Positions 107 through 47,628 of a stretch of DNA of 64,000 nucleotides are shown here, piece by piece. The DNA is from a virus. The translations under genes were made by a program, and so were the position numbers. How positions within the stretch are numbered: position 1 is the first letter of the stretch; each line of letters begins with the position of its first letter. The stretch lies in IMG/VR virus record IMGVR_UViG_3300002026_000015, positions 44,628-108,627 of that record; one strand, 5' to 3'. The notes beneath the pieces are model-generated. The model was not told where the DNA came from, did no database searches, and saw only the letters and a program-made list of their open reading frames with translations.

Positions 107-120
107 TATATTTAATTATG
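107..120 (+). promoter_or_regulatory. Putative early (virion RNAP) promoter TATATT-N6-TG
   Basis: TATATTTAATTATG; same motif recurs about 12 times upstream of non-structural genes. Confidence 0.6.
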
Positions 121-4136: not shown

Positions 4137-4711
4137 ATACTCAACACGTAATAGACTCATTTGGTAAAACACATCACGAACAGATTCCAATTTCGTTTAA
4201 TGTTGACAAGGGTGTTTATCATATAATCAAGTATATGAAGAAAGAATACCCTTTATTCTTAATTCCAATGGCATCGTGTGAAGGTGATCCAATAAGTGAA
4301 GATGGTTCTTGCGGATCTCTACCATATATCATGATGATTGTGAGAGATCTGAATAAGTTTGATGAATTTGTTAAAGAAATCTTTGGAAATGATTTCTTCC
4401 AAAAACATGTGACTATTGAGTACGATTGCAGCGATATTACCCGAATATTTACAATTCGGTGGAAGACTCCTGAAACTGAAGGGTTTAATAGAAGAGCTGC
4501 AGAATTACTTGACGATGTTGATTTGGAAACTGGGAACCTTATAACCCCTCGTGTTCCAGTTCAAACTAATCCATTAGTCGTATTGTCGATGGGATTTGAT
4601 GATCAAGAAATAAAAGTTCCAAATAAAGACGATTTCACTGTTCAGGAAATTGTTTCGGGATTAAGTAGTGAACAGATTCGGGAAAAGTATAGTTCTATAC
4701 GCATGAGTTAA
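4133..4711 (+). CDS. Hypothetical protein (VD...SCEG motif)
   Basis: ATGA overlap with upstream gene; ends before terminator. Confidence 0.75.
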   Translation: MNTQHVIDSFGKTHHEQIPISFNVDKGVYHIIKYMKKEYPLFLIPMASCEGDPISEDGSCGSLPYIMMIVRDLNKFDEFVKEIFGNDFFQKHVTIEYDCSDITRIFTIRWKTPETEGFNRRAAELLDDVDLETGNLITPRVPVQTNPLVVLSMGFDDQEIKVPNKDDFTVQEIVSGLSSEQIREKYSSIRMS

Positions 4712-4720
4712 ATAATAGTG

Positions 4721-4752
4721 TAAGTAGGGAGAAATCCCTACTTATATATTTT
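4721..4752 (+). terminator. Intrinsic terminator, GAAA tetraloop
   Basis: TAAGTAGGGA-GAAA-TCCCTACTTA. Confidence 0.8.
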
Positions 4753-8506: not shown

Positions 8507-10420
8507 ATGATACAAAATCAGGAAGAGTTGTATACAATGCTCATGGAGGCTAAGGATGCCTACTATGAAGGAAAACCGTTTATGTCGGATATAGATTTTG
8601 ATGCAATGGAAAATACTCTTAGAAGTATGAATCCTACACATATTTACTTCACTAAAGTTGGAAGTGAGGCAAGTACCGTAAGTGATACCGTTGTGCACGG
8701 AATTCCAATGTTATCTATGAGTAAGTTGAAATTTGGAGATGATATTGAATCATGGTTTATATCAAACAATATCCCTTCCGATGCAGATATATTATCTGAA
8801 CCTAAAATCGATGGTATCGCAGGATCTATAGTATACTCTGGGAGTGGTAAACTTATTTACGGCTCAACTCGTGGCGACGGGAAAAATGGAAAACTTATAA
8901 ATTTCATAGGCAAAAAAGAAATTGTTAATGTGCCAATGCAATTAGATTTCCGAGGAGATGGCGAATGGTGCAAGAAATTTGAAGTCAGAGGCGAATTCTA
9001 TATACCAGTTAAATACGGTGAAACCATTTTCAAAGATATGCCTTTGAGAAACGTTGCCGCAGGGATAATAAAATCCGGCGAAAACACTGAGTATCTAAAA
9101 TTCATGCCATATCAAGCTATAGTTGATGACAAACCATTTATGGATGGTGAAAATTATGGCGAAGAGATATTTGATTTTGATATGTTGGAAAGACTGTTGG
9201 AATTTGAAGTCGTGGATCATCTACTCATTGGTAAAGATGATATCGAAGATGTGATGCGAAATTATATCGAAAAAGGTAGAGATTTATTCGAGTATGAAAC
9301 CGATGGGATGGTTTTTATTGTAAATGATAAGAAACTTCAAGAAAAGATTGATTCTAGAAAGAAAGTTTCAGCTTATCACCATTACAATATCGCAATTAAA
9401 CCGCCAGCGAGAACTGCGGAAACGAAATTGAATACTATTGAAATCAGTATTGGAAAGTCTGGAAGAATTATTCCTACAGGAATTGTATATCCTGTCGTAA
9501 TTGCAAATATCGAAATCTCAAGAGCAACGTTGAACAATGTCGCTCATATGGAAGAATTTGGCGATGTATTTTACAAAAATGCATCAGTTGTAATTAAACG
9601 TGCAAATGATGTAATTCCAAAAATTGTAGAAATTTCAGATGATGGGGATAGGACTCAGCCTATACTAATTCCAACGGAGTGTCCATCTTGTGGAACTAAA
9701 CTTATAAGAGAAGGTAGAAATTTATTCTGCACAAATAAATTAAGTTGTCCTGGAATTGCAATAGCTAGAATTTGCCATTGGATTGAAACTATGGATATCA
9801 AAGATGTTGGTTTCAAAGCAATTGAAGCGGCGTACAATCTTGGAATTATCCGAAGCATCGTAGATCTCTATAGACCAGGACTTGAAGAAAAATTGTATCT
9901 TATCGATGGATTTGCTGATGGTAAAGTCGGAATCTTTATGAATGCAATTAATCTGTCAAAGGTTAATGTTTCAGATGTCGATATCATAAAAGGTATTGGT
10001 CTTACTGGGATCGGACGTCGTGTTCTTGAGAATTACAATCTAACTTCAATTGATACTCTCAAAGATGATCTTCAGCATCAGCAGAAGTATTCAGTTTGTA
10101 GAGTTCTATTGGAATGGTTGAATGAGGGTGATAACTATAATCTACTTAAAGAACTTAAAGTGATTATGGGATCTAAATCATCTAGCGTAAATAAGAATGG
10201 TAAGATTGTTGTAATGACTGGTACATTTGATATAGGTCGCAAAGATCTAATTAAAGAACTAGAATCTCGCGGATACACCGTTTCAGACAGTGTAACCAAA
10301 AGTACAACAATATTACTTGCAGGTGTTGACGGTGAATCAAATACGAAGTTTAAGAAAGCTTTGGAATTTGGTATAAGAATTGAAACAAATTTAGAAAACT
10401 TCTTAAAAGGAGATCATTAA
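8507..10420 (+). CDS. ligA: NAD-dependent DNA ligase
   Basis: PMLSM, EPKIDG (KxDG), TRGDG, EVRGE, TDG, RATLNN, RANDVIP, C4 zinc finger CPSC..C..C, C-terminal BRCT. Confidence 0.96.
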   Translation: MIQNQEELYTMLMEAKDAYYEGKPFMSDIDFDAMENTLRSMNPTHIYFTKVGSEASTVSDTVVHGIPMLSMSKLKFGDDIESWFISNNIPSDADILSEPKIDGIAGSIVYSGSGKLIYGSTRGDGKNGKLINFIGKKEIVNVPMQLDFRGDGEWCKKFEVRGEFYIPVKYGETIFKDMPLRNVAAGIIKSGENTEYLKFMPYQAIVDDKPFMDGENYGEEIFDFDMLERLLEFEVVDHLLIGKDDIEDVMRNYIEKGRDLFEYETDGMVFIVNDKKLQEKIDSRKKVSAYHHYNIAIKPPARTAETKLNTIEISIGKSGRIIPTGIVYPVVIANIEISRATLNNVAHMEEFGDVFYKNASVVIKRANDVIPKIVEISDDGDRTQPILIPTECPSCGTKLIREGRNLFCTNKLSCPGIAIARICHWIETMDIKDVGFKAIEAAYNLGIIRSIVDLYRPGLEEKLYLIDGFADGKVGIFMNAINLSKVNVSDVDIIKGIGLTGIGRRVLENYNLTSIDTLKDDLQHQQKYSVCRVLLEWLNEGDNYNLLKELKVIMGSKSSSVNKNGKIVVMTGTFDIGRKDLIKELESRGYTVSDSVTKSTTILLAGVDGESNTKFKKALEFGIRIETNLENFLKGDH

Positions 10421-18558: not shown

Positions 18559-19737
18559 ATGAGTTTCAAGTTAAACGATCAACAAGAAGCTGCTGTATAT
18601 AAAGCTTTGAATTGGTACTATCTTGAATCTCACAAACGACAACTGTTTGTCGTGGGAGGTTTGGCAGGTACTGGTAAAAGTACATGTTTGAGATCTATAA
18701 TTGAAGCAATAGGTTTATCTACAAATAGTGTTTTATACTGCGCATTAACAGGTAAGGCTGTATCGGTTCTTCGAATGAAGGGTCATATGGCAAATACTAT
18801 ACATCGAAGTTTTTACAATGCTAAGCCTTATAAAAACTCAGTATTCTTTTCCAAGAAACAACTAATTCCAAAAAACATAAAACTTATAGTTATAGATGAA
18901 TTTGGAATGGTCGGAGATTCACTAACGAATGATATACTATCATTCGGAGTTCCGGTTATTGCATTAGGGGATCCAGGGCAACTCCCTCCAGTCTTCGAGA
19001 AGAATACATTTATTGAAAATGAAGAAAATTTGGATGTGTTTCTAGATAAAGTTATGAGAACCGATGATACTTCAGGAATATTAACTTTAGCAATGATAGC
19101 TAGAAATAAAAAACCAATTCTTCCTGGAAATTATGGGTTCTCTAGAGCGTTAGAACTTGGAACTCAGATAAAACCAATGTTAGATTACAATAAGGTTTTA
19201 TGTTGGACAAATAAAACTAGAAAACATCTAAACTCTCATATCCGTGAACAACTTGGTATAACTTCAAAGTATCCTGTTAAAGGTGAGAAGGTTATGTTTC
19301 TAGGAAATAGGTATGACAAATCTATCGAATATCTTGGAATAGAACTTTGTATAGTAAATGGAATGGAATGTGAAGTTATCGAAGATTCAACTATAGAAAA
19401 TGATTATCAAATAAATATAAAAGCTCGTCCAATGTTTGTTGACGATAATGATATATATTTTGATGTGACGTGCAATAGAAGAATATTTGATGGATACACA
19501 GAGTTCGTCCCAGATCTTAAAACTTTAAGAATAGATGATATTGAAAGCGAAAGAGATTCGGTATTCTGCGACTTTGCATGGGCTGCTACAACAACTTCTT
19601 CTCAAGGAAGTGAGTGGGCTGACGTACTTGTGATCGATGAGATGCCAAAGTACAGACCTGAATATAGTAGATGGATATACACTGCTATAACTAGGGCTGC
19701 GTGTTCAGTTGACATTCTTATAGATCAGCAACATTAA
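18559..19737 (+). CDS. dda: Dda/RecD-like SF1B DNA helicase
   Basis: GLAGTGKST, ALTGKA, TIH, VIDE, GDPGQLPPV, SQGSEW, YTAITRA. Confidence 0.93.
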   Translation: MSFKLNDQQEAAVYKALNWYYLESHKRQLFVVGGLAGTGKSTCLRSIIEAIGLSTNSVLYCALTGKAVSVLRMKGHMANTIHRSFYNAKPYKNSVFFSKKQLIPKNIKLIVIDEFGMVGDSLTNDILSFGVPVIALGDPGQLPPVFEKNTFIENEENLDVFLDKVMRTDDTSGILTLAMIARNKKPILPGNYGFSRALELGTQIKPMLDYNKVLCWTNKTRKHLNSHIREQLGITSKYPVKGEKVMFLGNRYDKSIEYLGIELCIVNGMECEVIEDSTIENDYQINIKARPMFVDDNDIYFDVTCNRRIFDGYTEFVPDLKTLRIDDIESERDSVFCDFAWAATTTSSQGSEWADVLVIDEMPKYRPEYSRWIYTAITRAACSVDILIDQQH

Positions 19738-24361: not shown

Positions 24362-24880
24362 ATGAAGAAGAGTATTACGCCTCTTGATCCCGTAGATCTG
24401 GGTGGGATTACACCTCGAGCTGACGAACTAGTTACAAAAGAGGTACTTGGGTATCTTAACAGTATCAATATTAATCACAACCTTCTTTCGGATAACGATC
24501 CTATGAAAGATGAGTATACTAAGTTCCTTAACGATCTTGGTAATGCTCCAGTTATGATTACGAATGAAGATCTTGATATGGGCGATGCTGATGGATATTT
24601 CGATGATATCGACTTCTCGAACTCTGCAGTTGTATCTCTCGAATCTCTCGGTCTTGATTTCACAATCGATTCGTATATCGGAAATCCTTTGTGGGCAAAT
24701 GGTCTGTTCGGTTCAACGATTATGCCACCGGCATATATCCCGCCAATGCAACTTTCTGAAGGTGCTAAAGTTTCAACAATTAAGATACTTGGCGAAAAGT
24801 GTCAGTTTGTTGAACACGATTTCATATATCAACCACAGATTCTCTCCAAAATGGTTGATCTTGCATTCGTGAAAAAATAG
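24362..24880 (+). CDS. Hypothetical protein
   Basis: AAGGAG RBS; early-type promoter 24306-24319. Confidence 0.8.
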   Translation: MKKSITPLDPVDLGGITPRADELVTKEVLGYLNSININHNLLSDNDPMKDEYTKFLNDLGNAPVMITNEDLDMGDADGYFDDIDFSNSAVVSLESLGLDFTIDSYIGNPLWANGLFGSTIMPPAYIPPMQLSEGAKVSTIKILGEKCQFVEHDFIYQPQILSKMVDLAFVKK

Positions 24881-24981: not shown

Positions 24982-25536
24982 TTAGTTAGGATGAGCTTTC
25001 TTTGCATCGTCCCATGTCCCACCTTCACGTAGAACAGACACTCTGCGTCTAAGTTTATCATGTCCACGTCTAGAAGCCTTAGCAGGACAAACTCCAAGAT
25101 TTTTAACCAACGCAACTACAGTATTTATAACATCGCCACATTCGTCTTCAGTATGATCCTTCTCATTCTTTTCATGAGCTTCGATAGCTTCATCAATCTC
25201 TTCATAAACTTTCTCTTTAAAGAAAGATATAAGAGATTTTCTATCTTTTTTACCATCTGGAGTCTTATTGATAAAGTCTGCATTGTCATCTCTCCACTGG
25301 GAGATATGATCTAATGAAACTTTATTCTCCTGTAGTTGGGATTGATTGTCACGGTGCTCTTTCAATTCCTCAAGCCAATTTATCATAGATGTCAATTCGC
25401 CATCAGAAAAACTGATATCTTCGTTTTTAGATTTAGCATCGAAGATACGATTAATACAATTATTCAAACTCATTCTCGTACTATCCTCAGATTCTAAACC
25501 AAAAATGGCAAATATTTCATTTTCTAAACTATTCAT
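24982..25536 (-). CDS. MazG-like NTP pyrophosphohydrolase with N-terminal extra domain
   Basis: EEIDEA...DECGDV metal-binding motif, KLRRR, WDDAK; N-terminal WLEELKEHR helix. Confidence 0.8.
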   Translation of the reverse strand: MNSLENEIFAIFGLESEDSTRMSLNNCINRIFDAKSKNEDISFSDGELTSMINWLEELKEHRDNQSQLQENKVSLDHISQWRDDNADFINKTPDGKKDRKSLISFFKEKVYEEIDEAIEAHEKNEKDHTEDECGDVINTVVALVKNLGVCPAKASRRGHDKLRRRVSVLREGGTWDDAKKAHPN

Positions 25537-26271: not shown

Positions 26272-27069
26272 ATGAAAATATGTTTAGCCAAAAAAGATGT
26301 TACAACTTACAAGTTAAAACTTAAAAAGATGTTGACATGCGTTTCTAAATTTGGAAAGAGTAAAAATAATGATGATTTAATGTATCTATATCATTATATC
26401 AGTAAGAGTGATGGTTCTGTCCATCCGGTATTTTTCATAGATCAAGAAGTAAATCCTTGGGGAGAAGAATTCTATCCTGCAAAACTTGCAATGACAGGTA
26501 CAGATTTTCCAAAAGATATTGAGTTATTTTCAAGTAAATCTAAAGAAAATCTTGAAAAATATCATATCTCAAAATCTATGAATATAAACATTGCTCTATT
26601 TAGAAAGGAAACTATTGACAAATTGTCTGAAGTTTCCTATGATTCGGAGACATTTGAATTTGGTTTCCCATGTATAATGCAATCTAATACAGATTCGTTC
26701 TATGTAGATATCTTAAAAGAATCTAAATCTGTTACAGAGATCTTAAAATATGTTTCTCAAATGAAAGTCATATCTGATGAGAACGTATTAAGATCTATGC
26801 ATGAAGGTCTTATAAGTGAAACTACATTTGATTTAAAGAGTGAACACGGTACAATATTGAAAATTCTTTATTCAATATGCCCTCTCAAATTAAATAGATT
26901 TGAGTATTGTCGAAGAATCGATGTTAGCGAACGAGAGATGACTAGCACAGTATACTGTAGACAGTTCGTTGACATGATCGTTATACACAATTTCTATAAA
27001 TATATTGATATCTGGAGTCTTGAAGGAGATATAAATGATAGAATCCGTGGTGAAAACGCTGTATCTTAA
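26272..27069 (+). CDS. Hypothetical protein upstream of DNA polymerase, paralogue of 13366..14160
   Basis: GAGG RBS; overlaps polymerase start. Confidence 0.8.
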   Translation: MKICLAKKDVTTYKLKLKKMLTCVSKFGKSKNNDDLMYLYHYISKSDGSVHPVFFIDQEVNPWGEEFYPAKLAMTGTDFPKDIELFSSKSKENLEKYHISKSMNINIALFRKETIDKLSEVSYDSETFEFGFPCIMQSNTDSFYVDILKESKSVTEILKYVSQMKVISDENVLRSMHEGLISETTFDLKSEHGTILKILYSICPLKLNRFEYCRRIDVSEREMTSTVYCRQFVDMIVIHNFYKYIDIWSLEGDINDRIRGENAVS

Positions 27070-28813
27070 TGCAGACATTAAACGTGATCCTAGAACTGGT
27101 AGAATTGAAAAATCTAGACCAGATGCATTATTCTACGTTGTAGCAGATTCCAATGGTGGTCGAAATATACATATAAAGAATGAACCTGAATATGTATTCT
27201 TCAAAGCTAAAGAAGACTTGGGATATCACCGTTTATCTTGTCCTGTAGATATGCTTGAACCTGTAAAAGTTAAGTACTCAGTTCGTCATAATGAAATGGC
27301 AAAAGTTCTTGGAATTATTGATGAGTATCGTCAGGCTAAAGAAGATTGGAGAACTAAAAGTGATTTCGTGAATAAACGAATTTACGGCAGTTCTCAATTG
27401 TATCATGCTGATATGCATGTTGAAGATGTATTTAAACTGAACTTCAATGAAAAACATGGAGATCATTCGGCAGATATATCTTACAGACCGAGCTTTATGG
27501 ATATCGAGGTTCGAGCAGACCTTGACGACTTCGACCAACATAAAGCATTGGTTCCAATTTGTTCAATATGTCACCTTGATAGTGCTACAAAGACTATCTA
27601 CGTAAATGTATTGAACGATAAAGATGTACCCGAAATCGTGGAGTTGTTTGGCAATCTGCAAGACTTTGTTAAAGAGATGAGAGAATTCTTTACGAAGATA
27701 ATGTTAGAAGCTATCGAATCTATTGTTGAAGATGGGGGGAAAGCTTCAAATATTGACGATTTCAAATATAAGTTTCAATTCAGATTAGTAGAAACAGAAG
27801 CTGATCTTATCGAAACTTATGCAAACGTTCTTAAAGAAACTAAACCCGATTTCTGTGGTTGTTGGGGTATTAACTTCGATATGATAACCATTTCAAAACG
27901 TGCTGCAAAGAATGGTTTGAATATGGCGGATTTATTTAGCGATCCATCAGTTCCTCCGGAGTATCGATATTTCCAATATGTTGAAGATCCTGATAGATTT
28001 AACCGTAAGGCTGCTACACATTTCTCGAGATATATGGATAAAATCTTTTCAACTTCTCCAACTCAATTCTATTGTCAGATGAGTCTCCATTCTAATCTTA
28101 GAAAGAGATTCCTTGAAGACAATTATAAATTGAATACTATTGGCGAGAAATATGCATACATTAAGAAATATGACCTTGAATCTGAAGGTTATACGATTAA
28201 AGATGTATATAAGAAGAATTTCCGAGTATTCCTCAAATATGCTATTATGGACGTTGTTGTTCAGGATCAAATTGAAAGAGCTAACAAGGACATTCCTCGT
28301 TACATGGTATCATGTAAAGACTCAAGATTTACACATGGTACTAGAAAGACTGTAGGTATCAAAAACGAACTTGCAACATTCTTAAAAGAACGTGGCGAGA
28401 TTATTGGTAACAATAAAGGATATGATATCGATGAATCTGTTCCTGGTGCTATTATCGCAAGTCCTAATTTAATTATCAAGAAAGGGATTAACTTGATGGG
28501 GATCTTGACACACATATATCGAAGTTGTGTGGATTTTGACCTTACAGCAGAGTATCCTTCTCTCATGATTGCGTATAACATTCTCAAAACTACGATATTT
28601 GGACGAATAGTCGATATCTTTTTCGAGAGGGACATAGGTAATGGGAATACTTTAAATATACCAATATCTCAAGGTGGAGACTTTAATAAAATGATGGAAA
28701 CCCTTGATACATCGATATTTGATATAGGTCAGAAGTATTTCGGATTACCATCAGTTGATCAGGTATTATCGCATATTGAAAATGGTTGTATTAACACTAA
28801 AGAAACGGTTTAA
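27035..28813 (+). CDS. Split family-B DNA polymerase, exonuclease + motif A subunit
   Basis: ExoI FMDIEV, ExoII WGINFDM, ExoIII YAIMDV, motif A DFDLTAEYPS; motifs B and C absent. Confidence 0.88.
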   Translation: MIESVVKTLYLNADIKRDPRTGRIEKSRPDALFYVVADSNGGRNIHIKNEPEYVFFKAKEDLGYHRLSCPVDMLEPVKVKYSVRHNEMAKVLGIIDEYRQAKEDWRTKSDFVNKRIYGSSQLYHADMHVEDVFKLNFNEKHGDHSADISYRPSFMDIEVRADLDDFDQHKALVPICSICHLDSATKTIYVNVLNDKDVPEIVELFGNLQDFVKEMREFFTKIMLEAIESIVEDGGKASNIDDFKYKFQFRLVETEADLIETYANVLKETKPDFCGCWGINFDMITISKRAAKNGLNMADLFSDPSVPPEYRYFQYVEDPDRFNRKAATHFSRYMDKIFSTSPTQFYCQMSLHSNLRKRFLEDNYKLNTIGEKYAYIKKYDLESEGYTIKDVYKKNFRVFLKYAIMDVVVQDQIERANKDIPRYMVSCKDSRFTHGTRKTVGIKNELATFLKERGEIIGNNKGYDIDESVPGAIIASPNLIIKKGINLMGILTHIYRSCVDFDLTAEYPSLMIAYNILKTTIFGRIVDIFFERDIGNGNTLNIPISQGGDFNKMMETLDTSIFDIGQKYFGLPSVDQVLSHIENGCINTKETV

Positions 28814-28815
28814 TT

Positions 28816-29244
28816 ATGTCTATTACAGTTAGAGATGGCATTAAATTTGCTACAACAATTGCAGAACTAAGTTCTTCAACTTATCTCCCTGGATCTTCAA
28901 ATCAGTTCGTTGGACAGAATACTGATGTGATTCCTACAAACTTCTGGATCGATGCAGAAGATAGTGAATTTGTTATTAGTTTTCAACCTCTCGATCTTGG
29001 CGAAATTTGGTACATTCCTATTCCAGATAATTATCGTAGAATGTCTGTAATTAACGGGGTTTACAGAACCAAATCTCTCGATGATCTTTCCGATTTTATC
29101 GAAACATTTGAAGAGACTTGCGCAGATATAAGAAAGCAAAACGATGATGCGAAACTCATATTTGATGGAATTGTAAGTCGTAAAGTTCAATTGAACGGGA
29201 ATACAGGTTCTATCGTTGGACCTTGTTCAATTCCTCAAGCATAA
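28816..29244 (+). CDS. Hypothetical protein
   Basis: Immediately follows polymerase. Confidence 0.75.
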   Translation: MSITVRDGIKFATTIAELSSSTYLPGSSNQFVGQNTDVIPTNFWIDAEDSEFVISFQPLDLGEIWYIPIPDNYRRMSVINGVYRTKSLDDLSDFIETFEETCADIRKQNDDAKLIFDGIVSRKVQLNGNTGSIVGPCSIPQA

Positions 29245-29261
29245 CTTGTTAGGAGATTAAA

Positions 29262-29726
29262 TTGTTTAAATTTATAAGAAGATTTTTTCAGAAGAGAAAG
29301 TTTGAAATATTAGACAGATCGTTTAAAGATTCAATACTTGGTCTGAAACGAATTCTCCTATTAATTGAAGAGTCTAATCCTAAAAGAGAATTGTCTCTTG
29401 AAGAAGTTCAATTATTGGATATGATAATAGCTAAGCACCATGAGGATCTAGGTAAAACGCTAGATTCTCTTGGGTATGGAGATTTGAAGATTCAGAAGTA
29501 TACTTATAGTTTCTTTGAGATTCAGAAGACGCAAGGATATGTAAATCACAATGATAGACATAAATTTGTGAAAGATACTCTTAAAAAGATTATAACTCTG
29601 CATGATACGTATGGTGGTTCTGTAAATGAAGATGGCATTCATAAGAAATTTCAGATGATCTTTGATGGTTTTACAGTGGTCAATTACGAAATAACCAAAT
29701 CTCCAAGTGTTGCAAATCTTCAATAA
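29262..29726 (+). CDS. Hypothetical protein
   Basis: AGGAG RBS, TTG start. Confidence 0.75.
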   Translation: MFKFIRRFFQKRKFEILDRSFKDSILGLKRILLLIEESNPKRELSLEEVQLLDMIIAKHHEDLGKTLDSLGYGDLKIQKYTYSFFEIQKTQGYVNHNDRHKFVKDTLKKIITLHDTYGGSVNEDGIHKKFQMIFDGFTVVNYEITKSPSVANLQ

Positions 29727-29730
29727 TCGT

Positions 29731-29759
29731 TATATTGGGGGAGAATATCCCCCAATATA
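29731..29759 (+). terminator. Hairpin terminator
   Basis: TATATTGGGGGA-GAATA-TCCCCCAATATA. Confidence 0.75.
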
Positions 29760-29787
29760 ATATATGTATTAAAGGTTATATGAAGTG

Positions 29788-29801
29788 TATATAAAGTATT
29801 G
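29788..29801 (+). promoter_or_regulatory. Putative early promoter for micropeptide gene
   Basis: TATATA-AAGTAT-TG fits TATATW-N6-YG. Confidence 0.5.
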
Positions 29802-29834
29802 TTTAGAATTATAAATCTTTACTTGGAGGATATC

Positions 29835-29867
29835 ATGGGACCATTCTTACCACCATATGGGAAATAA
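29835..29867 (+). CDS. 10-aa micropeptide MGPFLPPYGK
   Basis: GGAGG RBS 5 nt before ATG; sole ORF between two terminators. Confidence 0.6.
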   Translation: MGPFLPPYGK

Positions 29868-29869
29868 AG

Positions 29870-29904
29870 AAAAAAAAGAGGCGCATTTAAGCGCCTCTTT
29901 TTTT
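29870..29904. terminator. Intrinsic terminator
   Basis: A tract-GAGGCGC-ATTTAA-GCGCCTC-T7. Confidence 0.85.
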
Positions 29905-30023
29905 ATTTAATAAATCGATTTTTTAAAAAATTTGTTATTTATATATTTAGTTATGAGTAAAGGTAATAGAATATGGGTGATTCTAGTATCTGGTAATTAA
30001 ACAAAACAAATGAGGAGTCTATT

Positions 30024-30989
30024 ATGACTGAAGCGACTATTTTTACACCAACAAATGATCAAATCAATGATGAATTCATTTTCGGAACACTGATTTGTGC
30101 GAAGAGCACTTTGCTCCTCTCTAAGGAAATTTCATATGATGATTATGAACTCCTTGAGAAACTTACAGGACTGTGCAGTGAAACTATGGCGACATTGCCA
30201 GAATCCGAATGGAAATCAAAAGTTAACTGTGATTCAGTGCGGAAGTTTTTCATCTTCTCAAAATTGAACGATAAAGTTATTGTAAAATTCGATCATGAAA
30301 CTTTTCAGAAGTATATACTTGCAATGGGGGAAATCGCAAAAGGTTCTGAAAACCTTGTAAGTATACTCGACAATCTTGTCAACGGTAAAACTGATACTAT
30401 GGCGGCTCCGGTCCATGATGAAGATGACCATGGTAAATCTGTACACATTATTGGTTCTGCAAGTAATGATATTGAAGCGCCTGTTGAAACTGGAAACGTT
30501 AAAAGTTCTGATAAAGTTGTTGAAGATCAGTTCGAACTTACAGAGTTTGGAAAGAAATTTATTCAAATCCTCAACGATACCAAAGATGGGGATGAATTCG
30601 GCGATATCCTTACTGATCTGACACTCGGTGAACTTTGCTTCAGACACTTCAAGCGTGATGATACCAAACCACGGATTCCTTCTGAAAAGGCTCAGGAAAT
30701 CCTTGGAAAGTTCATCGCATTTGGAGTAAAAGCAAATATCAAGAGTGTATTCCATGAACTTGGAAACGTTCGTATTCTCGACCTCGGAACTGAAACCGAT
30801 GATGAACCAATGATCATTGTCACTGAAAATGTAACAGTACACGATGATACCACATATGAAGTAGTTGAACCTGCATCCAAGGTTAAACCTCTTCGCGGCG
30901 ATGGTACACCAATGACAAACAAGGAGATTAAGGCAATGAATCGTCGAGCAAAACAAAATGCTGCTCGTCATCATGCCGTACATCACTAA
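30024..30989 (+). CDS. Hypothetical acidic protein with basic/His C-tail
   Basis: GAGGAG RBS; early promoter 29942-29955. Confidence 0.85.
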   Translation: MTEATIFTPTNDQINDEFIFGTLICAKSTLLLSKEISYDDYELLEKLTGLCSETMATLPESEWKSKVNCDSVRKFFIFSKLNDKVIVKFDHETFQKYILAMGEIAKGSENLVSILDNLVNGKTDTMAAPVHDEDDHGKSVHIIGSASNDIEAPVETGNVKSSDKVVEDQFELTEFGKKFIQILNDTKDGDEFGDILTDLTLGELCFRHFKRDDTKPRIPSEKAQEILGKFIAFGVKANIKSVFHELGNVRILDLGTETDDEPMIIVTENVTVHDDTTYEVVEPASKVKPLRGDGTPMTNKEIKAMNRRAKQNAARHHAVHH

Positions 30990-31006
30990 GTTTGTAAAAC
31001 AGATAA

Positions 31007-31040
31007 GAAGATAGGGGATTTCTCCCCTATCTTTTTTTTT
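31007..31040. terminator. Bidirectional terminator
   Basis: AAGATAGGGGA-TTTC-TCCCCTATCTT (GAAA loop on minus strand). Confidence 0.85.
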
Positions 31041-31510
31041 CAATCTTCGAAGATGAAATCATCATCATCATAAATTGGAGCATTAGGATCAACAGTAGTT
31101 GTTGTGTCAAAACTTGAAGGATCTAGAGTTTTTCTAGCAAGGTCAAGTTTTCCAGCATTTTTCAACTGCTGCTTCCACATCTCTTCATGGTTATTAATGA
31201 GAACGCTCTCACCATTTTCACCACGAATAAGAACTTTTTTATGATGAGCATTAAATACTGGAATCTGAGTTACCGGATCTATATGCTGCTTATAAGTTCT
31301 TTCACTTAAATCTTTTTCAACCTCATCAAGATTTATTTTTTTAAGCTCTTTTGTAAAGTTAGCTTCAATTCTAGTATGACATTTGAAATTAGTATCTATA
31401 GGAATATCCTTAGACTGGATAGGAATTACAGGGACTGTTGAAAAACCTAAATTATCTGACATACTAGTTTCACCTGTCACAATTTCAAAATCGATATCGC
31501 CATTATTCAT
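31040..31510 (-). CDS. Hypothetical protein
   Basis: GGAG RBS, coupled to upstream gene. Confidence 0.75.
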   Translation of the reverse strand: MNNGDIDFEIVTGETSMSDNLGFSTVPVIPIQSKDIPIDTNFKCHTRIEANFTKELKKINLDEVEKDLSERTYKQHIDPVTQIPVFNAHHKKVLIRGENGESVLINNHEEMWKQQLKNAGKLDLARKTLDPSSFDTTTTVDPNAPIYDDDDFIFED

Positions 31511-31511
31511 A

Positions 31512-31928
31512 TCAAATCTCCATTATGTTGGGGTTAACAATATTAACTCTTCTATCATTTCTAATAATATCTGCCGTGAATTTCAATGACGGAATCCCGG
31601 AAACAGTTATCATTATGTACGCCAATCTTGAATCGCTATCATCTCGAATTATCTGACAGTCGATATCATTGCGATTATATCGACTTAATCCTTTAGATAT
31701 AGCACTCTGAATTTGTTCTACACTTTCAGCGTAGTATAAGTTTAGTACATCATTGAATGAACCAGCTTCTGGAAACTCATCCAACGTTCCACGCTCCATA
31801 TATAGAGTGTGTAGAATTGTAGTAACGATTTGGTTTATTTTAACCAGACCGTGGTCGTATAGCTTTTGTAGATCATTGTTCACTATAGTTGGTGTAAAAT
31901 CTACAACAGTTTTATCTTTTGTAATCAA
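31512..31928 (-). CDS. Baseplate wedge protein, gp25-like
   Basis: LYMERGTLDEFPEAG resembles the gp25 L.T..Ge....P..G motif; AGGAGG RBS with TTG 31928. Confidence 0.6.
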   Translation of the reverse strand: MITKDKTVVDFTPTIVNNDLQKLYDHGLVKINQIVTTILHTLYMERGTLDEFPEAGSFNDVLNLYYAESVEQIQSAISKGLSRYNRNDIDCQIIRDDSDSRLAYIMITVSGIPSLKFTADIIRNDRRVNIVNPNIMEI

Positions 31929-31946
31929 TATTCCTCCTCTAACTCC

Positions 31947-31996
31947 CAATAATATGTTTAACACTATATACATTCTCAGACGAAAACATATTATTG
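31947..31996. promoter_or_regulatory. Divergent late promoters (13-bp inverted repeat)
   Basis: CAATAATATGTTT...AAACATATTATTG. Confidence 0.72.
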
Positions 31997-32018
31997 TAAT
32001 AAAACAATGGAGAAAGAT

Positions 32019-32828
32019 ATGTCTAGAACAATTTCGTTGAAAGCCGCTAGTGCTAAAGTAAATTTATATAAGTGTCCAGAGTGTCCTAAGAAATTTACAA
32101 ATACTGCGGGTTTACATAAACACGTCGCTGAAGACCATGGTGGAGTTATTCCGGACGAAGTATCGGTTAAGCAATATATTTTCAATAGAAAATATAAAAA
32201 ATCTCATGGTAAATGTGTAGTTTGTCCAAAGAAAACTAAGTGGAATGAAGAAAAAGGACGGTATGAAAGATATTGTTCGGATGCGTGTGTAAAGAAAGCA
32301 CGAGAAGAATTCCGTCGTAACTGTATGAGAAGGCTTGGAACAGATAATCCAGCTTCTACTCCAGAGCATCAAATGAATGCAATCAAAGGTCGAAGTTATA
32401 GTGGAGAATATACATATAGTGATGGAGGAATAATTGGATATTCATCTAGTTATGAATTAGACTTCCTCATATTCTGTGATGAAACTTTAAAATTTCCTTC
32501 ATCCGAAGTAATGCAGTGTGATATTATATTCAATTTTGAGTATGAAGGATCTGAAAGATTTCATATCCCAGATTTTTATCTTCCAGTTTATAACCTTATT
32601 GTGAATATAAAGACTTTCCAAAATGGAAATTCAAATATTCAAGGAACTGCTAAAGATCGTCAGAAGCTTAGTGATAAAGCTATTGTCGATAATGGTTCAT
32701 ACAACTATATAATGATCTTAGATAAAGAGTATACGGATCTAGTAAGTGTACTAAAGATCATCAAAGATAGATCCATGTCGTCCAATAATGATACTGGTGA
32801 AAAAATTGTTTCAATTCCAAAATATTAA
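32019..32828 (+). CDS. C2H2 zinc finger + TnsA/T4 gp4-like PD-(D/E)xK domain protein
   Basis: YKCPECPKKF..LHKHVAEDH; CVVC..CSDAC; YSSSYELDF..HIPDF..IVNIK. Confidence 0.75.
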   Translation: MSRTISLKAASAKVNLYKCPECPKKFTNTAGLHKHVAEDHGGVIPDEVSVKQYIFNRKYKKSHGKCVVCPKKTKWNEEKGRYERYCSDACVKKAREEFRRNCMRRLGTDNPASTPEHQMNAIKGRSYSGEYTYSDGGIIGYSSSYELDFLIFCDETLKFPSSEVMQCDIIFNFEYEGSERFHIPDFYLPVYNLIVNIKTFQNGNSNIQGTAKDRQKLSDKAIVDNGSYNYIMILDKEYTDLVSVLKIIKDRSMSSNNDTGEKIVSIPKY

Positions 32829-34646: not shown

Positions 34647-34732
34647 TTACGAAAATTCAATAACGAGCTATAATTATATATTAAGTTATGATAGAGTTAA
34701 ATGATTCATCCTTATGAAAGGGGTTGATATAA

Positions 34733-36930: not shown

Positions 36931-36970
36931 TTCTGTAATAACTTGGTTTTAATGTCTATATTAAGTTATG
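36931..36970 (+). promoter_or_regulatory. Extended early-promoter block (copy of 4751-4790)
   Basis: TTCTGTAATAACT...TCTATATTAAGT. Confidence 0.65.
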
Positions 36971-37033
36971 GTAGATTAGGGAAATAAGATAAGGTGTCTT
37001 ATAACTCTACAACTTAAAATAAAGGAGTCTATC

Positions 37034-43118: not shown

Positions 43119-43808
43119 ATGAAAAGACCTGAAATGATAATGCGTATAAATACGTATTGTAGAGTTGTTGAGAGAATCTATAATAGTATAGATGAGATCG
43201 ATCAAGAAGAGTATGATATAAATATGGTAATCAAATGCTGCAAAGGTCTGTTACCATATCATGGAGGGTTATATTCTGAGAGTGGTTGTATATGGAGATA
43301 TGTTGATGATCTTCCATTTTTGAAAGCTAATTACGATTTCCAAGATACACTATTATTTGGAAATAAACTTGTCCTAGCAAGTGACAATGATCGTATAGAT
43401 GATGCAAATTTAGCATACTCTAAAAACGATTGGTTATTAGATATTTCAAATATTGATATCGAACAAGATTATCCTAAAGTTCAGTCGACCTTATACAAAG
43501 CGATTAGAAATAATGCACTTGTTACAAAAGACATATCTTATCCCGACATATGGAAATTCGCAGTAGTTCAAACAGATCTACTTGGAAATATTATACAAAT
43601 ATTTCCAAATTTATCTCATGTATATGAAAAATTTGGAATGAAACGATCTACTATAAAGAAATTTTTAGATACTGAAGAACCTATGTATAATTATAAATGG
43701 TATAAATATCCAACATTGTTTTCATTATACCAAAATATCTACAACAGTTTCATCTCATCAATGTTTAATTTTACAGGATTTTATATAGATCCGATGAAAA
43801 AGTACTAA
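43119..43808 (+). CDS. Tandem NUMOD1/IENR1-like DNA-binding protein, no evident nuclease domain
   Basis: RIYNSIDE..IKCCKG..GCIWRY and VVQTDLLGNIIQIFPNLS..IKK..YNYKWY; no HNH or GIY-YIG motif. Confidence 0.65.
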   Translation: MKRPEMIMRINTYCRVVERIYNSIDEIDQEEYDINMVIKCCKGLLPYHGGLYSESGCIWRYVDDLPFLKANYDFQDTLLFGNKLVLASDNDRIDDANLAYSKNDWLLDISNIDIEQDYPKVQSTLYKAIRNNALVTKDISYPDIWKFAVVQTDLLGNIIQIFPNLSHVYEKFGMKRSTIKKFLDTEEPMYNYKWYKYPTLFSLYQNIYNSFISSMFNFTGFYIDPMKKY

Positions 43809-44440
43809 AAATCTCTGACACTTTTAGTCGAAATTTGGAGTAGAATTTTTACTCCATTTTTCGAGTTTTAACGTTTTTCGAACTTAAAATATTCCTACTC
43901 ATATACGAAAGTATATTTTCGTCATTTTTCACTTTTTTGACTAATTTTGTCATCGACAATCCCACTGTTTACGTTAAAAACGTGTTGGAAAAGGGGAGTA
44001 AATTGAACCCCAAATTATATATATAGTAGTGTACTACTATATACGATAAATCTTAAAAAAGAGAATAGAATTAAATATAATCAAATAATGATAAGTAAGC
44101 GAATGCACGATATGATGGACGACCGCAGGGAAGTGATCACGATAGTAAATATTAATCAGAGATAGTCAAGAAGTAATCAGAGAATGAAATGAGAACGAAC
44201 GAAGTGAGATAAGTATAATAATAACTTCTATATAATGGATGGGAGTATTTTTGTTTCTCGCGTTTTTCGAGAAACCTTTTTTTTTCATACATGGAATGTT
44301 AAAATTGAAATATAATTATTTATCTGTGATTCCCTTCGGGTTTAGATTATGCTCCCGGAGGTCGCGTTAGTTACAACGTAATTCAAATATCTTAATATCC
44401 TACGATGGACAATCTATTGATTATTTACCAATAAACTTTT
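43809..44440. other. Largest non-coding region; candidate replication origin
   Basis: T tracts, palindromes, strand-composition switch, mini-hairpin motifs; upstream of helicase operon. Confidence 0.45.
44020..44043. repeat. 11-bp perfect inverted repeat
   Basis: TATATAGTAGT-GT-ACTACTATATA. Confidence 0.85.
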
Positions 44441-47291: not shown

Positions 47292-47572
47292 GTAAGAAGT
47301 AGGTATCGTTGTTGACGTTATATATCATGCGCATTATTCTAATCGCTGATCGGAAATAATAAATTACAACAACTTGAATTACACGAAAACCTCACTGGGC
47401 GTAGAACATTCGGTATTTAAAAGAATAAACAACTCCCCGTTTCTTTTAAATATACACCATATATATTGACCACTGGAACCTCTCGGTGCACGTTCTAACT
47501 CAGTATATATTGGATCCGTATTTTTTAGTGATTGCTAGATAGTTGGGTCGAAAGGCCCAGCTATTTATTTTT
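47291..47572 (+). ncRNA. Candidate ~280-nt structured late non-coding RNA
   Basis: Promoter at 5' end, GAAA terminator at 3' end, several long stems, no RBS-supported ORF. Confidence 0.55.
47539..47572 (+). terminator. Intrinsic terminator, GAAA tetraloop
   Basis: ATAGTTGGGTC-GAAA-GGCCCAGCTAT plus T-rich tail. Confidence 0.8.
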
Positions 47573-47628
47573 GACTTGATTTTTAACTATATATTTAATA
47601 TTGGAGATAATATCAATAGGAGGTATCC

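What the first reader, a model, noticed from the sequence alone, without database searches (positions are those of the whole stretch)
29761..29904. Complete transcription unit for a 10-aa Pro-rich peptide, MGPFLPPYGK
Seen: between two strong hairpin terminators (29731-29759, 29870-29904) lie an early-type promoter (TATATA-N6-TG, 29788), a GGAGG RBS (29825-29829) and ATG GGA CCA TTC TTA CCA CCA TAT GGG AAA TAA, and nothing else. All three Pro codons are CCA. It is below the ORF-track cutoff. Known: minigenes such as lambda bar cause peptidyl-tRNA drop-off, PP motifs stall ribosomes in an EF-P-dependent way, and Pro-rich peptides can block the exit tunnel. Inference: a dedicated early micropeptide acting as a host-takeover or anti-defence effector, tRNA-Pro/EF-P sink, or signal. 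It has no signal sequence, so it is not arbitrium-like.
Basis: partly seen in the sequence, partly recalled or inferred. Interest (0 to 1): 0.8.

Follow-up and report, generated by a model that had tools for sequence, protein, structure and literature searches.

The report
Ten-codon proline mini-gene cassette in jumbo phage
A giant phage from a microbial mat carries a self-contained mini-cassette (weak phage promoter, perfect ribosome-binding site, 10-codon proline-rich reading frame, strong terminator) in a variable cargo slot, and its nearest relative has a similar 22-codon unit at the same slot, so it is probably a real but functionally unknown micro-gene.

Summary
Every element is at the stated coordinates: two hairpins of about -21 kcal/mol, GGAGG 5 nt before ATG, and MGPFLPPYGK-TAA.

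The window belongs to a 108.6-kb uncultured jumbo-phage contig. It has AR9-like promoter classes, TATATW-N6-TG (early-like) and AACA-N6-TG (late-like). It scores 13.1 bits and ranks 26 of 217,190 positions, below all 19 training sites.

GGAGG-N4-8-ATG falling by chance in this 65-nt interval has a probability of about 0.002. "All Pro codons are CCA" is unremarkable, since CCA is 37% of Pro codons.

The unit lies in a hypervariable cargo island after PolB. In the only close relative with this region (L005, PolB 57% identical) the slot holds just one unit: terminator, TATATA-N6-TG, AAGGAG, a 22-codon ORF and terminator. Its core PPWVPPI aligns in frame with GPFLPPY. Peptide similarity gives p about 0.001-0.013. 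DNA similarity is not above chance.

No RNA data and no further relatives could be obtained.

Best reading (about 0.45): a translated micro-gene acting through a P-hydrophobic-hydrophobic-P-P core. Rivals are a vestigial cassette, a small RNA and an attenuator.

The scan has noted other proline micro-ORFs in unrelated giant phages; I did not test those notes.

The parts
29729..29761 (+). Hairpin 1. It ends the upstream operon (gene 29262-29726). It has a GGGGG/CCCCC core with AU extensions and only a weak U-tract.
   Evidence: -21.5 kcal/mol, z -4.25.
29788..29801 (+). Promoter-like motif TATATAAAGTATTG, a weak member of the TATATW-N6-TG early-like class. The predicted start site is at or near G29801, by analogy with AR9.
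   Evidence: 13.1 bits, rank 26 of 217,190. Sites at 13 bits or more: 23 in non-coding DNA against 2 in 200 kb of coding DNA. One search gives the AR9 consensus.
29825..29829 (+). Shine-Dalgarno GGAGG, 5 nt before the ATG. Its context GGAGGATAT also occurs at real gene starts in the contig.
   Evidence: It is unpaired in the centroid fold.
29835..29867 (+). 10-codon ORF MGPFLPPYGK plus TAA.
   Evidence: In-frame core similarity to the L005 22-codon ORF.
29871..29904 (.). Hairpin 2, an intrinsic terminator. Its form is bidirectional: A8, the GC stem 29878-29884 / 29891-29897, then T9.
   Evidence: -21.1 and -21.2 kcal/mol. The same type of sequence recurs on many unrelated contigs of the mat metagenomes.
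29942..29955 (+). Strong consensus early-like promoter of the next cassette (gene 30024-30989, terminator 31005-31036). It is context and not part of the mini-unit.
   Evidence: 24.2 bits.
28816..30989 (+). Variable cargo island between PolB (27035-28813) and the conserved convergent genes (31040-31973, minus strand). It holds ORFan genes of 142, 154 and 321 aa plus the mini-unit.
   Evidence: absent from L005, different cargo in L027, L028 and L051. (ORFans).

Best explanation
The element is a moron-like, single-cistron cassette of an uncultured AR9-type jumbo phage, and it expresses a 10-residue proline-rich peptide.

Transcription would start at a weak early-class promoter (TATATA-N6-TG, start near 29801), or come from read-through of hairpin 1, which lacks a clean U-tract. 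It would stop at hairpin 2, giving an RNA of about 105 nt. The 5' two-thirds of that RNA is unstructured. It presents a perfect SD and an ATG, so host ribosomes should translate MGPFLPPYGK.

The functional part is most likely the N-proximal core P-(F/W)-(L/V)-P-P, which is shared with the 22-residue peptide of the nearest relative. I take the released peptide to be the effector. It would be a short, peptidase-resistant, polyproline-II-type linear motif that occupies a proline-recognising site on a host or phage protein early in infection.

Shown: the anatomy, the promoter class, the rarity of such SD-led tiny ORFs, the position in a cargo slot, and the similar unit in L005.

Inferred: transcription, translation, homology of the two peptides, and the whole mode of action.
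For: 1. All cassette parts are present and correctly ordered.
2. The promoter class is real. TATATW-N6-TG has 24 non-coding sites against 3.7 expected, nearly all 3-100 nt upstream of same-strand genes. The candidate scores 13.1 bits on a PWM trained without it. Only 2 sites at 13 bits or more occur in 200 kb of coding sequence.
3. GGAGG with a start codon in non-coding DNA otherwise always marks a real gene. The chance of one in this interval is about 0.002.
4. The SD and ATG are unpaired in the predicted fold.
5. Strong-SD tiny ORFs are rare: 21 in 153 kb of non-coding DNA from 114 jumbo-phage loci.
6. The closest relative, L005, has at the same PolB-proximal slot a terminator, TATATA-N6-TG, AAGGAG-N5-ATG, a 22-codon ORF and a terminator.
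7. MAFFT aligns the two ORFs in frame, GPFLPPY with PPWVPPI. There is one synonymous Pro change and the conservative changes F/W and L/V.
8. The ungapped BLOSUM62 score is 23. This gives p = 0.013 (one peptide shuffled), 0.006 (both shuffled) and 0.0025 (random 9-mers from the genome, any frame). Only 2 of 2,320 tiny non-coding ORFs reach that score, one of them the L005 ORF.
9. The stop codon lies 3 nt before the terminator, as in neighbouring real cassettes.
10. PP is rare in the proteome, 24 in 33,584 residues, yet it is present in both micro-ORFs.
Against: - There is no expression evidence of any kind.
- Only one relative is available for comparison, and the DNA-level similarity of the two units is not above chance (Smith-Waterman p about 0.3).
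- The L005 promoter-like motif scores only 2.2 bits on this phage's PWM.
- The window promoter is weaker than all 19 training sites and deviates at two informative positions. AR9 virion RNAP is reported to be sensitive to single deviations.
- The two ORFs differ in length, 10 against 22 codons.
- The immediate flanking genes are not shared, so positional homology is inferred from the slot and not from the flanks.
- Ten residues is at the lower limit for a specific protein ligand.
Confidence: 0.45

Rival explanations
1. Vestigial cassette. A former cargo gene of this hypervariable slot lost most of its body by deletion. What remains is its promoter, SD, first codons and terminator. The peptide, if made at all, has no function.
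For: The slot turns over quickly, with different cargo in the window, L005, L027, L028 and L051. The neighbouring genes are ORFans. The promoter is degenerate relative to its class. A perfect SD with an ATG is exactly what a dead gene's 5' end would leave. The ORF lengths of 10 and 22 codons are not conserved.
Against: Two related phages would each need to retain an SD-led stub with a similar in-frame Pro-Pro core bounded by intact terminators. No longer homologue of either peptide was found. None of the slot genes in L027, L028 or L051 starts like them, and tblastn of the 22-mer against 50,697 phage records found nothing. The stop-to-terminator spacing is like that of intact cassettes.
Confidence: 0.25
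2. Ribosome-directed minigene. The ORF is translated, but what matters is the act of translating it. The ribosome pauses at the di-prolyl motif with a nascent chain of only 6-8 residues. This ties up ribosomes, EF-P or peptidyl-tRNA-Pro, or promotes drop-off.
For: Both ORFs place their first PP at codons 6-8. L005 has PPW, one of the strongest EF-P-dependent pause motifs (PMC13602936). Drop-off is described for nascent chains under 7 residues (PMC8012679). The core is conserved while the tail is free to vary, which fits a ribosome-level function.
Against: The window motif is PPY, which is not in the top pause class. Host EF-P should resolve such pauses. The promoter is weak, so a stoichiometric sink is implausible. 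No benefit to the phage is evident. The three CCA codons are not unusual.
Confidence: 0.12
3. Small non-coding RNA. The RNA of about 105 nt, with a single-stranded 5' part and a terminator hairpin, is the product. The ORF is incidental.
For: The phage appears to have other promoter-to-terminator units without SD-led ORFs, for example after the orphan promoters at 44018 and 47462. The predicted RNA has an sRNA-like shape.
Against: No Rfam family reaches threshold. No complementarity beyond 13 nt to the rest of the contig was found, with E of 0.08 or worse. A perfect, accessible SD at optimal spacing from an ATG is unexpected for an sRNA. The resemblance to L005 is at the peptide level and not the RNA level.
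Confidence: 0.1
4. Leader peptide or attenuator. Translation of the Pro-containing ORF controls read-through of hairpin 2 into gene 30024-30989.
For: The ORF stops 3 nt before the A-tract of hairpin 2, so a terminating ribosome would cover the AU part of the stem. Pro-codon leader ORFs that tune attenuation are known in Salmonella (mgtL, mgtP). That last point is from my own knowledge and was not checked here.
Against: No alternative anti-terminator structure is predicted, and the centroid fold contains only hairpin 2. The downstream gene has its own strong promoter (24.2 bits), placed after hairpin 2. In L005 no same-strand gene follows the unit, and the stop lies about 14 nt before the stem.
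Confidence: 0.04

Closest known systems
Morons: promoter-gene-terminator cassettes inserted between conserved phage genes
   Same: It is a self-contained unit with its own promoter-like site and terminator. It sits in a slot that holds different cargo in each relative, between PolB and a conserved convergent module.
   Different: The cargo is only 10 codons. The phage is a lytic-type jumbo phage with its own RNAP promoters, not a temperate phage using host sigma-70 promoters.
Phage lambda bar minigenes (AUG-AUA-UAA; PMC8012679)
   Same: It is a phage-encoded, SD-led, very short ORF that is not part of a larger gene.
   Different: bar encodes a dipeptide and acts through peptidyl-tRNA drop-off in Pth-deficient cells. 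Here there are 10 codons, there is no evidence of toxicity, and the distinguishing feature is a Pro-Pro core.
XPPX EF-P-dependent pause motifs and RAPP-type arrest peptides (PMC13602936, PMC10951233)
   Same: It contains a di-prolyl motif (LPPY). The L005 peptide contains PPW and VPPI.
   Different: There is no RAPP or RAGP motif. PPY is not in the strongest pause class. No downstream gene is regulated by the stall.
AR9 / PBS1 early (virion RNAP) transcription units (PMC5312081)
   Same: The promoter classes TATATATT..N..TG and AACA-N6-TG resemble AR9 early AAATATATATTAT-(6N)-G and late AACA-(6N)-TA/G. PolB's best known relatives are AR9, PBS1 and phiR1-37.
   Different: PolB is only about 25% identical. 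The spacing to the conserved G differs by about 1 nt. No such micro-cistron came up in the AR9 paper I consulted (PMC5312081).
Smallest known stand-alone peptide genes: mccA (7 codons, microcin C) and T4 Stp (26 aa). This comparison is from my own knowledge and was not checked here.
   Same: It is an independently expressed gene of fewer than 30 codons whose peptide is the product.
   Different: There are no adjacent modification or export genes as there are for mccA. There is no sequence similarity to either.

Membership tests
Moron-like single-gene cassette | Own promoter upstream and own terminator downstream of the ORF | tested here: met
   The promoter-class PWM score is 13.1 bits, rank 26 of 217,190. 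Hairpin 2 folds at -21 kcal/mol and is followed by T9. The promoter's activity is untested.
Moron-like single-gene cassette | Inserted between genes that are adjacent in relatives | tested here: met
   In L005, PolB is followed within 280 nt by homologues of window genes 31040-31973(-). The block 28816-30989 is absent there.
Lambda bar-type drop-off minigene | ORF of a few codons, so that the nascent chain is under 7 residues at release or drop-off | tested here: not met
   The ORF has 10 sense codons. The threshold comes from PMC8012679. A stall at the PP at codons 6-7 would be borderline.
Lambda bar-type drop-off minigene | Toxicity and peptidyl-tRNA accumulation in Pth-limited cells | not testable with these tools
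   This needs expression in a pth(ts) host.
EF-P-dependent XPPX stalling motif | Two consecutive prolines in the translated frame | tested here: met
   LPPY is at codons 5-8. L005 has EPPW and VPPI.
EF-P-dependent XPPX stalling motif | Belongs to the strongest pause class (PPW, PPN, PPD, PPG, PPP) | tested here: not met
   The window has PPY. The class list comes from PMC13602936. The L005 homologue candidate does have PPW.
RAPP/RAGP arrest peptides (ApdA, ApdP, SecM type) | R-A-P-P or R-A-G-P motif at the arrest point, upstream of a regulated gene | tested here: not met
   No such motif is in MGPFLPPYGK. The unit ends in its own terminator. The family is described in PMC10951233.
Transcription-attenuation leader peptide | Mutually exclusive terminator and anti-terminator structures | tested here: not met
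   The MFE and centroid folds of 29803-29912 show only hairpin 2 and weak 3-4 bp stems.
Transcription-attenuation leader peptide | Downstream gene depends on read-through | tested here: not met
   Gene 30024 has a 24.2-bit consensus promoter at 29942, after hairpin 2. In L005 only convergent genes follow.
Arbitrium / RRNPP signalling peptide | Pre-pro-peptide with a secretion signal, next to a receptor gene | tested here: not met
   The peptide has only 10 residues and no hydrophobic signal. The neighbours have no Pfam or PHROG domains of receptor type.
Known RNA families (Rfam 15) | Score at or above the family gathering threshold | tested here: not met
   The best hit is 33 bits against a threshold of 64. 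All hits ride on the terminator hairpin.
AR9-type early (virion RNAP) promoter | Extended AT-rich TATATATT-type element with a conserved G start a fixed distance downstream | tested here: inconclusive
   The class is clearly present in the contig. The candidate is a deviant member, with TATATA and T after TG. Which RNAP uses it and when it is expressed are inferred only by analogy.

The most novel reading that the evidence does not exclude
The window ORF and the L005 ORF are founding members of a family of stand-alone micro-genes of 10-22 codons, specific to a clade of AR9-like jumbo phages. Their conserved N-proximal P-hydrophobic-hydrophobic-P-P core would act on the host translation apparatus or on a proline-recognising host protein immediately after infection. 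That would make this one of the smallest independently transcribed, functional phage genes known.
Probability: 0.25. Interest if true: 0.7.

Novelty: new variant of a known kind. Interest (0 to 1): 0.4.

Why it matters
If it is real, it shows that jumbo phages devote complete transcription units to peptides far below every annotation cutoff. It would add a di-prolyl micro-peptide to the short list of stand-alone genes under 25 codons. It would also offer a compact handle on early phage-host interaction, whether through ribosome/EF-P biology or a proline-motif target.

In practice it illustrates that variable cargo slots of uncultured jumbo phages can hide tiny cassettes. It also shows that phage-specific promoter PWMs combined with SD statistics can flag them.

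If it is a vestige, it is an ordinary by-product of cargo turnover.

Tried and rejected
- **DNA similarity to known phages:** there was no megablast or blastn match of 29262-30989 in 50,697 phage records.
- **Relatives through the flanking genes:** the 154-aa and 321-aa genes gave no relatives in viral or metagenome contigs. They match only themselves among 5.8 billion proteins.
- **Degenerate pattern for the peptide, allowing synonymous changes:** 0 hits in viral contigs.
- **The look-up of encoding contigs:** The contigs of the closest PolB relatives (P0003-P0011, 57-68% identity, ENA/Logan) could therefore not be fetched. This is the main gap.
- **Sequencing runs:** no RNA holder was listed. 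The four microbial-mat DNA runs gave only identical copies of the phage, probably from the source samples. They also gave many unrelated contigs matching hairpin 2 alone, so there is no variation to analyse.
- **PolB-anchored scans:** scans of viral, metagenome and genome contigs gave only L005, L027, L028, L029 and L051 as usable relatives.
- **Second anchor (endonuclease-like gene 32007-32828):** it returned 65 loci, but only L005's record and one rearranged locus carry PolB nearby.
- **DNA-level homology of the window and L005 units:** not above chance. A shared 10-mer, ATGTATTAAA, just after hairpin 1 in both is noted but not significant on that test.
- **sRNA target search within the contig:** nothing beyond 13 nt.
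- **L005 22-mer:** tblastn against phages found no match.
- **Codon argument (3 x CCA):** rejected as uninformative.
- **Resemblance to oncocin-type proline-rich antimicrobial peptides:** considered from memory and rejected. The peptide has no Arg-Pro repeats, has a net charge of about +1, and is only 10 residues long.

Full report
**What is there**

Reading the window confirms every element at the stated coordinates. The + strand gene 29262-29726 ends at TAA and is followed by hairpin 1 (29729-29761). Hairpin 1 has 14 pairs and folds at -21.5 kcal/mol.

After an AT-rich spacer comes TATATAAAGTATTG (29788-29801). Then come GGAGG (29825-29829), a 5-nt spacer, and ATG GGA CCA TTC TTA CCA CCA TAT GGG AAA TAA (29835-29867).

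Three bases after the stop, hairpin 2 begins (29871-29904). Its GC stem GAGGCGC/GCGCCTC is flanked by A8 and T9. It folds at about -21 kcal/mol on either strand, so it has the form of a bidirectional intrinsic terminator.

Hairpin 1 has only a poor U-tract, so it may terminate weakly.

No tRNA, no Rfam family above threshold and no other SD-led ORF lies between the hairpins.

**What genome this is**

The window is bases 44628-108627 of a 108.6-kb IMG/VR viral contig, estimated to be 41% complete. That implies a jumbo phage of roughly 260 kb. Its GC content is 33-35%.

It encodes a family B DNA polymerase (27035-28813) and a 1511-aa multisubunit-RNAP beta-like protein. PolB's nearest named relatives are Bacillus phages AR9 and PBS1 and Yersinia phage phiR1-37, at only about 25% identity. 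The DNA occurs in microbial-mat metagenomes.

**Promoters of this phage**

Listing the sequences upstream of all genes shows two recurrent motifs.

Class A is TATATW-N6-TG, with the extended form TATATATTAAGTTATGA. It has 24 sites in the 7.7% of the contig that is non-coding, against 3.7 expected. Nearly all point at a same-strand start codon 3-100 nt away.

Class B is AACA-N6-TG.

These resemble the experimentally defined AR9 early consensus AAATATATATTAT-(6N)-G(+1) and late consensus AACA-(6N)-TA/G (PMC5312081). Assigning class A to "early, virion RNAP" is therefore an inference by analogy.

I built a PWM from 19 class A sites, excluding the candidate. On it the candidate scores 13.1 bits and ranks 26 of 217,190 positions. 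That is below every training site (15.4-29.2 bits). Only 2 sites at 13 bits or more occur in 200 kb of coding sequence, against 23 in 16.7 kb of non-coding sequence.

The candidate deviates at motif position 6 (A for T) and just after TG (T for a purine). The AR9 paper reports that a single deviation can abolish virion-RNAP use. So the promoter is plausible but weak.

Read-through from the upstream operon across hairpin 1 is an alternative source of transcripts.

**Translation signals**

GGAGG-N4-8-ATG occurs 12 times in the window against 4.15 expected. In non-coding DNA of the contig, every other GGAGG followed by a start codon heads a real gene. Several of those share the context GGAGGATAT.

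Chance placement in the 65 nt between the predicted start site and hairpin 2 is about 0.002.

In the predicted fold the SD and ATG are unpaired. The only stable structure is hairpin 2.

The codon argument is weak. CCA is 37% of Pro codons in this genome, so three CCA codons have p about 0.05. By contrast, PP dipeptides are rare in the proteome: 24 in 33,584 residues.

**Comparative evidence**

The flanking 154-aa and 321-aa genes are ORFans.

PolB has relatives at 45-68% identity. Of these, only L005 (57%), L027, L028 and L029, plus the distant L051, could be fetched.

L005 is syntenic with the window on both sides, but it lacks the whole block 28816-30989. In L027, L028 and L051 other genes follow PolB. 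The region is therefore a hypervariable cargo slot.

In L005 the slot contains only one thing:
- a terminator (9772-9795)
- TATATAAATACTTG (9837-9850)
- AAGGAG (9861-9866)
- ATG at 9872, opening a 22-codon ORF, MIYQNEPPWVPPIDSDDEDWVL
- a bidirectional terminator (9954-9983)

MAFFT aligns the two ORFs in frame, GPFLPPY over PPWVPPI. The alignment shows one synonymous Pro change (CCA/CCT) and the conservative replacements F/W and L/V.

The ungapped BLOSUM62 score of 23 has these p values:
- 0.013 when the window peptide is shuffled
- 0.006 when both peptides are shuffled
- 0.0025 against random 9-mers from the genome, taken in any frame

Among 2,320 tiny ATG-ORFs in 153 kb of non-coding DNA from 114 jumbo-phage loci, only two reach that score. 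One is the L005 ORF, and it is the only one of the 21 strong-SD ORFs that does.

Three things count against over-reading this. DNA-level similarity of the two units is not above chance (p about 0.3). The L005 promoter-like motif scores only 2.2 bits on this phage's PWM. And there is only this one relative to compare.

The bidirectional form of hairpin 2 has no convergent gene to serve in the window. It would make sense if the ancestral arrangement was L005-like, with the unit abutting the convergent genes. The 321-aa cassette has its own promoter at 29942 and its own terminator at 31005-31036. On this view it was inserted later. This is inference.

**Alternatives**

*Attenuator.* No anti-terminator structure is predicted. 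The downstream gene has its own strong promoter placed after hairpin 2. The L005 unit has no downstream same-strand gene.

*Small RNA.* There is no Rfam match and no complementarity beyond 13 nt within the contig. The resemblance to L005 is at the peptide level and not the RNA level. On the other hand, the phage does seem to have ORF-less promoter-terminator units elsewhere.

*Vestigial cassette.* This fits the fast turnover of the slot and the degenerate promoter. But it requires two lineages to keep similar SD-led stubs, and no longer homologue was found.

*Ribosome-directed minigene.* Both ORFs place their first PP at codons 6-8. That is near the chain length below which drop-off is described (under 7 residues, PMC8012679). 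L005 has the strong pause motif PPW (PMC13602936). However, the window has PPY, the promoter is weak, and host EF-P should relieve the pause.

**Verdict**

The anatomy is that of a genuine mini-cassette, and a probable counterpart exists in the nearest relative.

I consider a translated micro-gene the best explanation (0.45). Within that reading, a free proline-motif peptide is the somewhat more likely mode of action.

Nothing about its expression or function has been shown.

Earlier notes of this scan describe proline micro-ORFs in other, unrelated giant phages. No look-alike stretch of this locus was on record. Those notes were used as leads to papers only.

Noticed in passing
whole contig; e.g. 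window 107-120, 29942-29955, 34677-34690, 36957-36970, 47590-47603 (class A) and upstream of 8387/8495, 34607, 41958/42033, 50023 (class B): There are two phage-specific promoter classes, TATATW-N6-TG and AACA-N6-TG. They resemble the AR9 early and late consensus sequences, which suggests an AR9-like transcription strategy with two phage RNAPs in a phage only about 25% identical in PolB.
   Followed up: partly
L005:9772-9983: The nearest relative carries an unannotated unit in the slot after PolB: terminator, TATATA-N6-TG, AAGGAG, a 22-codon ORF (MIYQNEPPWVPPIDSDDEDWVL) and a bidirectional terminator. The ORF has two PP motifs and an acidic tail.
   Followed up: partly
window 28816-30989 versus L005, L027, L028, L051: The position between PolB and the conserved convergent genes is a hypervariable cargo slot. 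It holds unrelated ORFan genes in every relative examined.
   Followed up: yes
window 29871-29904: Sequences nearly identical to hairpin 2, with a 3-nt shorter loop, sit on many unrelated and often deeper-covered contigs of the same microbial-mat metagenomes. Contigs often break there. It looks like a generic or multi-copy terminator-type element in the community, possibly in the host.
   Followed up: no
many terminators, e.g. window 4727-4745, 18575-18595, 31008-31033, 43130-43148: Most hairpins after genes share a GGG(A/G)GAAATCCC-type core with a conserved GAGAAAT-like loop, and hairpin 1 is a variant of it. This stereotyped terminator or processing hairpin may be recognised by a phage factor.
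   Followed up: no
window 44018-44290 and 47462-47572; contig position 25142 (window -19485): Class A promoter-like sites lie more than 150 nt from any gene, inside the longest intergenic regions. The one at 44018 is followed by a purine-rich stretch and a terminator near 44253-44285, with no SD-led ORF. These are candidate non-coding transcription units.
   Followed up: no
window 36957-37033 and contig 1743-1818 (window -42884 to -42809): Two nearly identical stretches of about 80 nt, each a promoter plus 5' leader (TCTATATTAAGTTATG...AAAGGA), head unrelated genes. Related copies lie at window 4777 and at contig positions 4269 and 26481.
   Followed up: no
contig 24459-24494 (window -20168 to -20133): This is the only other tiny ORF with a good SD (AGGAG-N8-ATG, 11 codons, MDWNSKVEITV) in non-coding DNA of the contig. 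It lies in the leader of the gene starting at window -20057.
   Followed up: no
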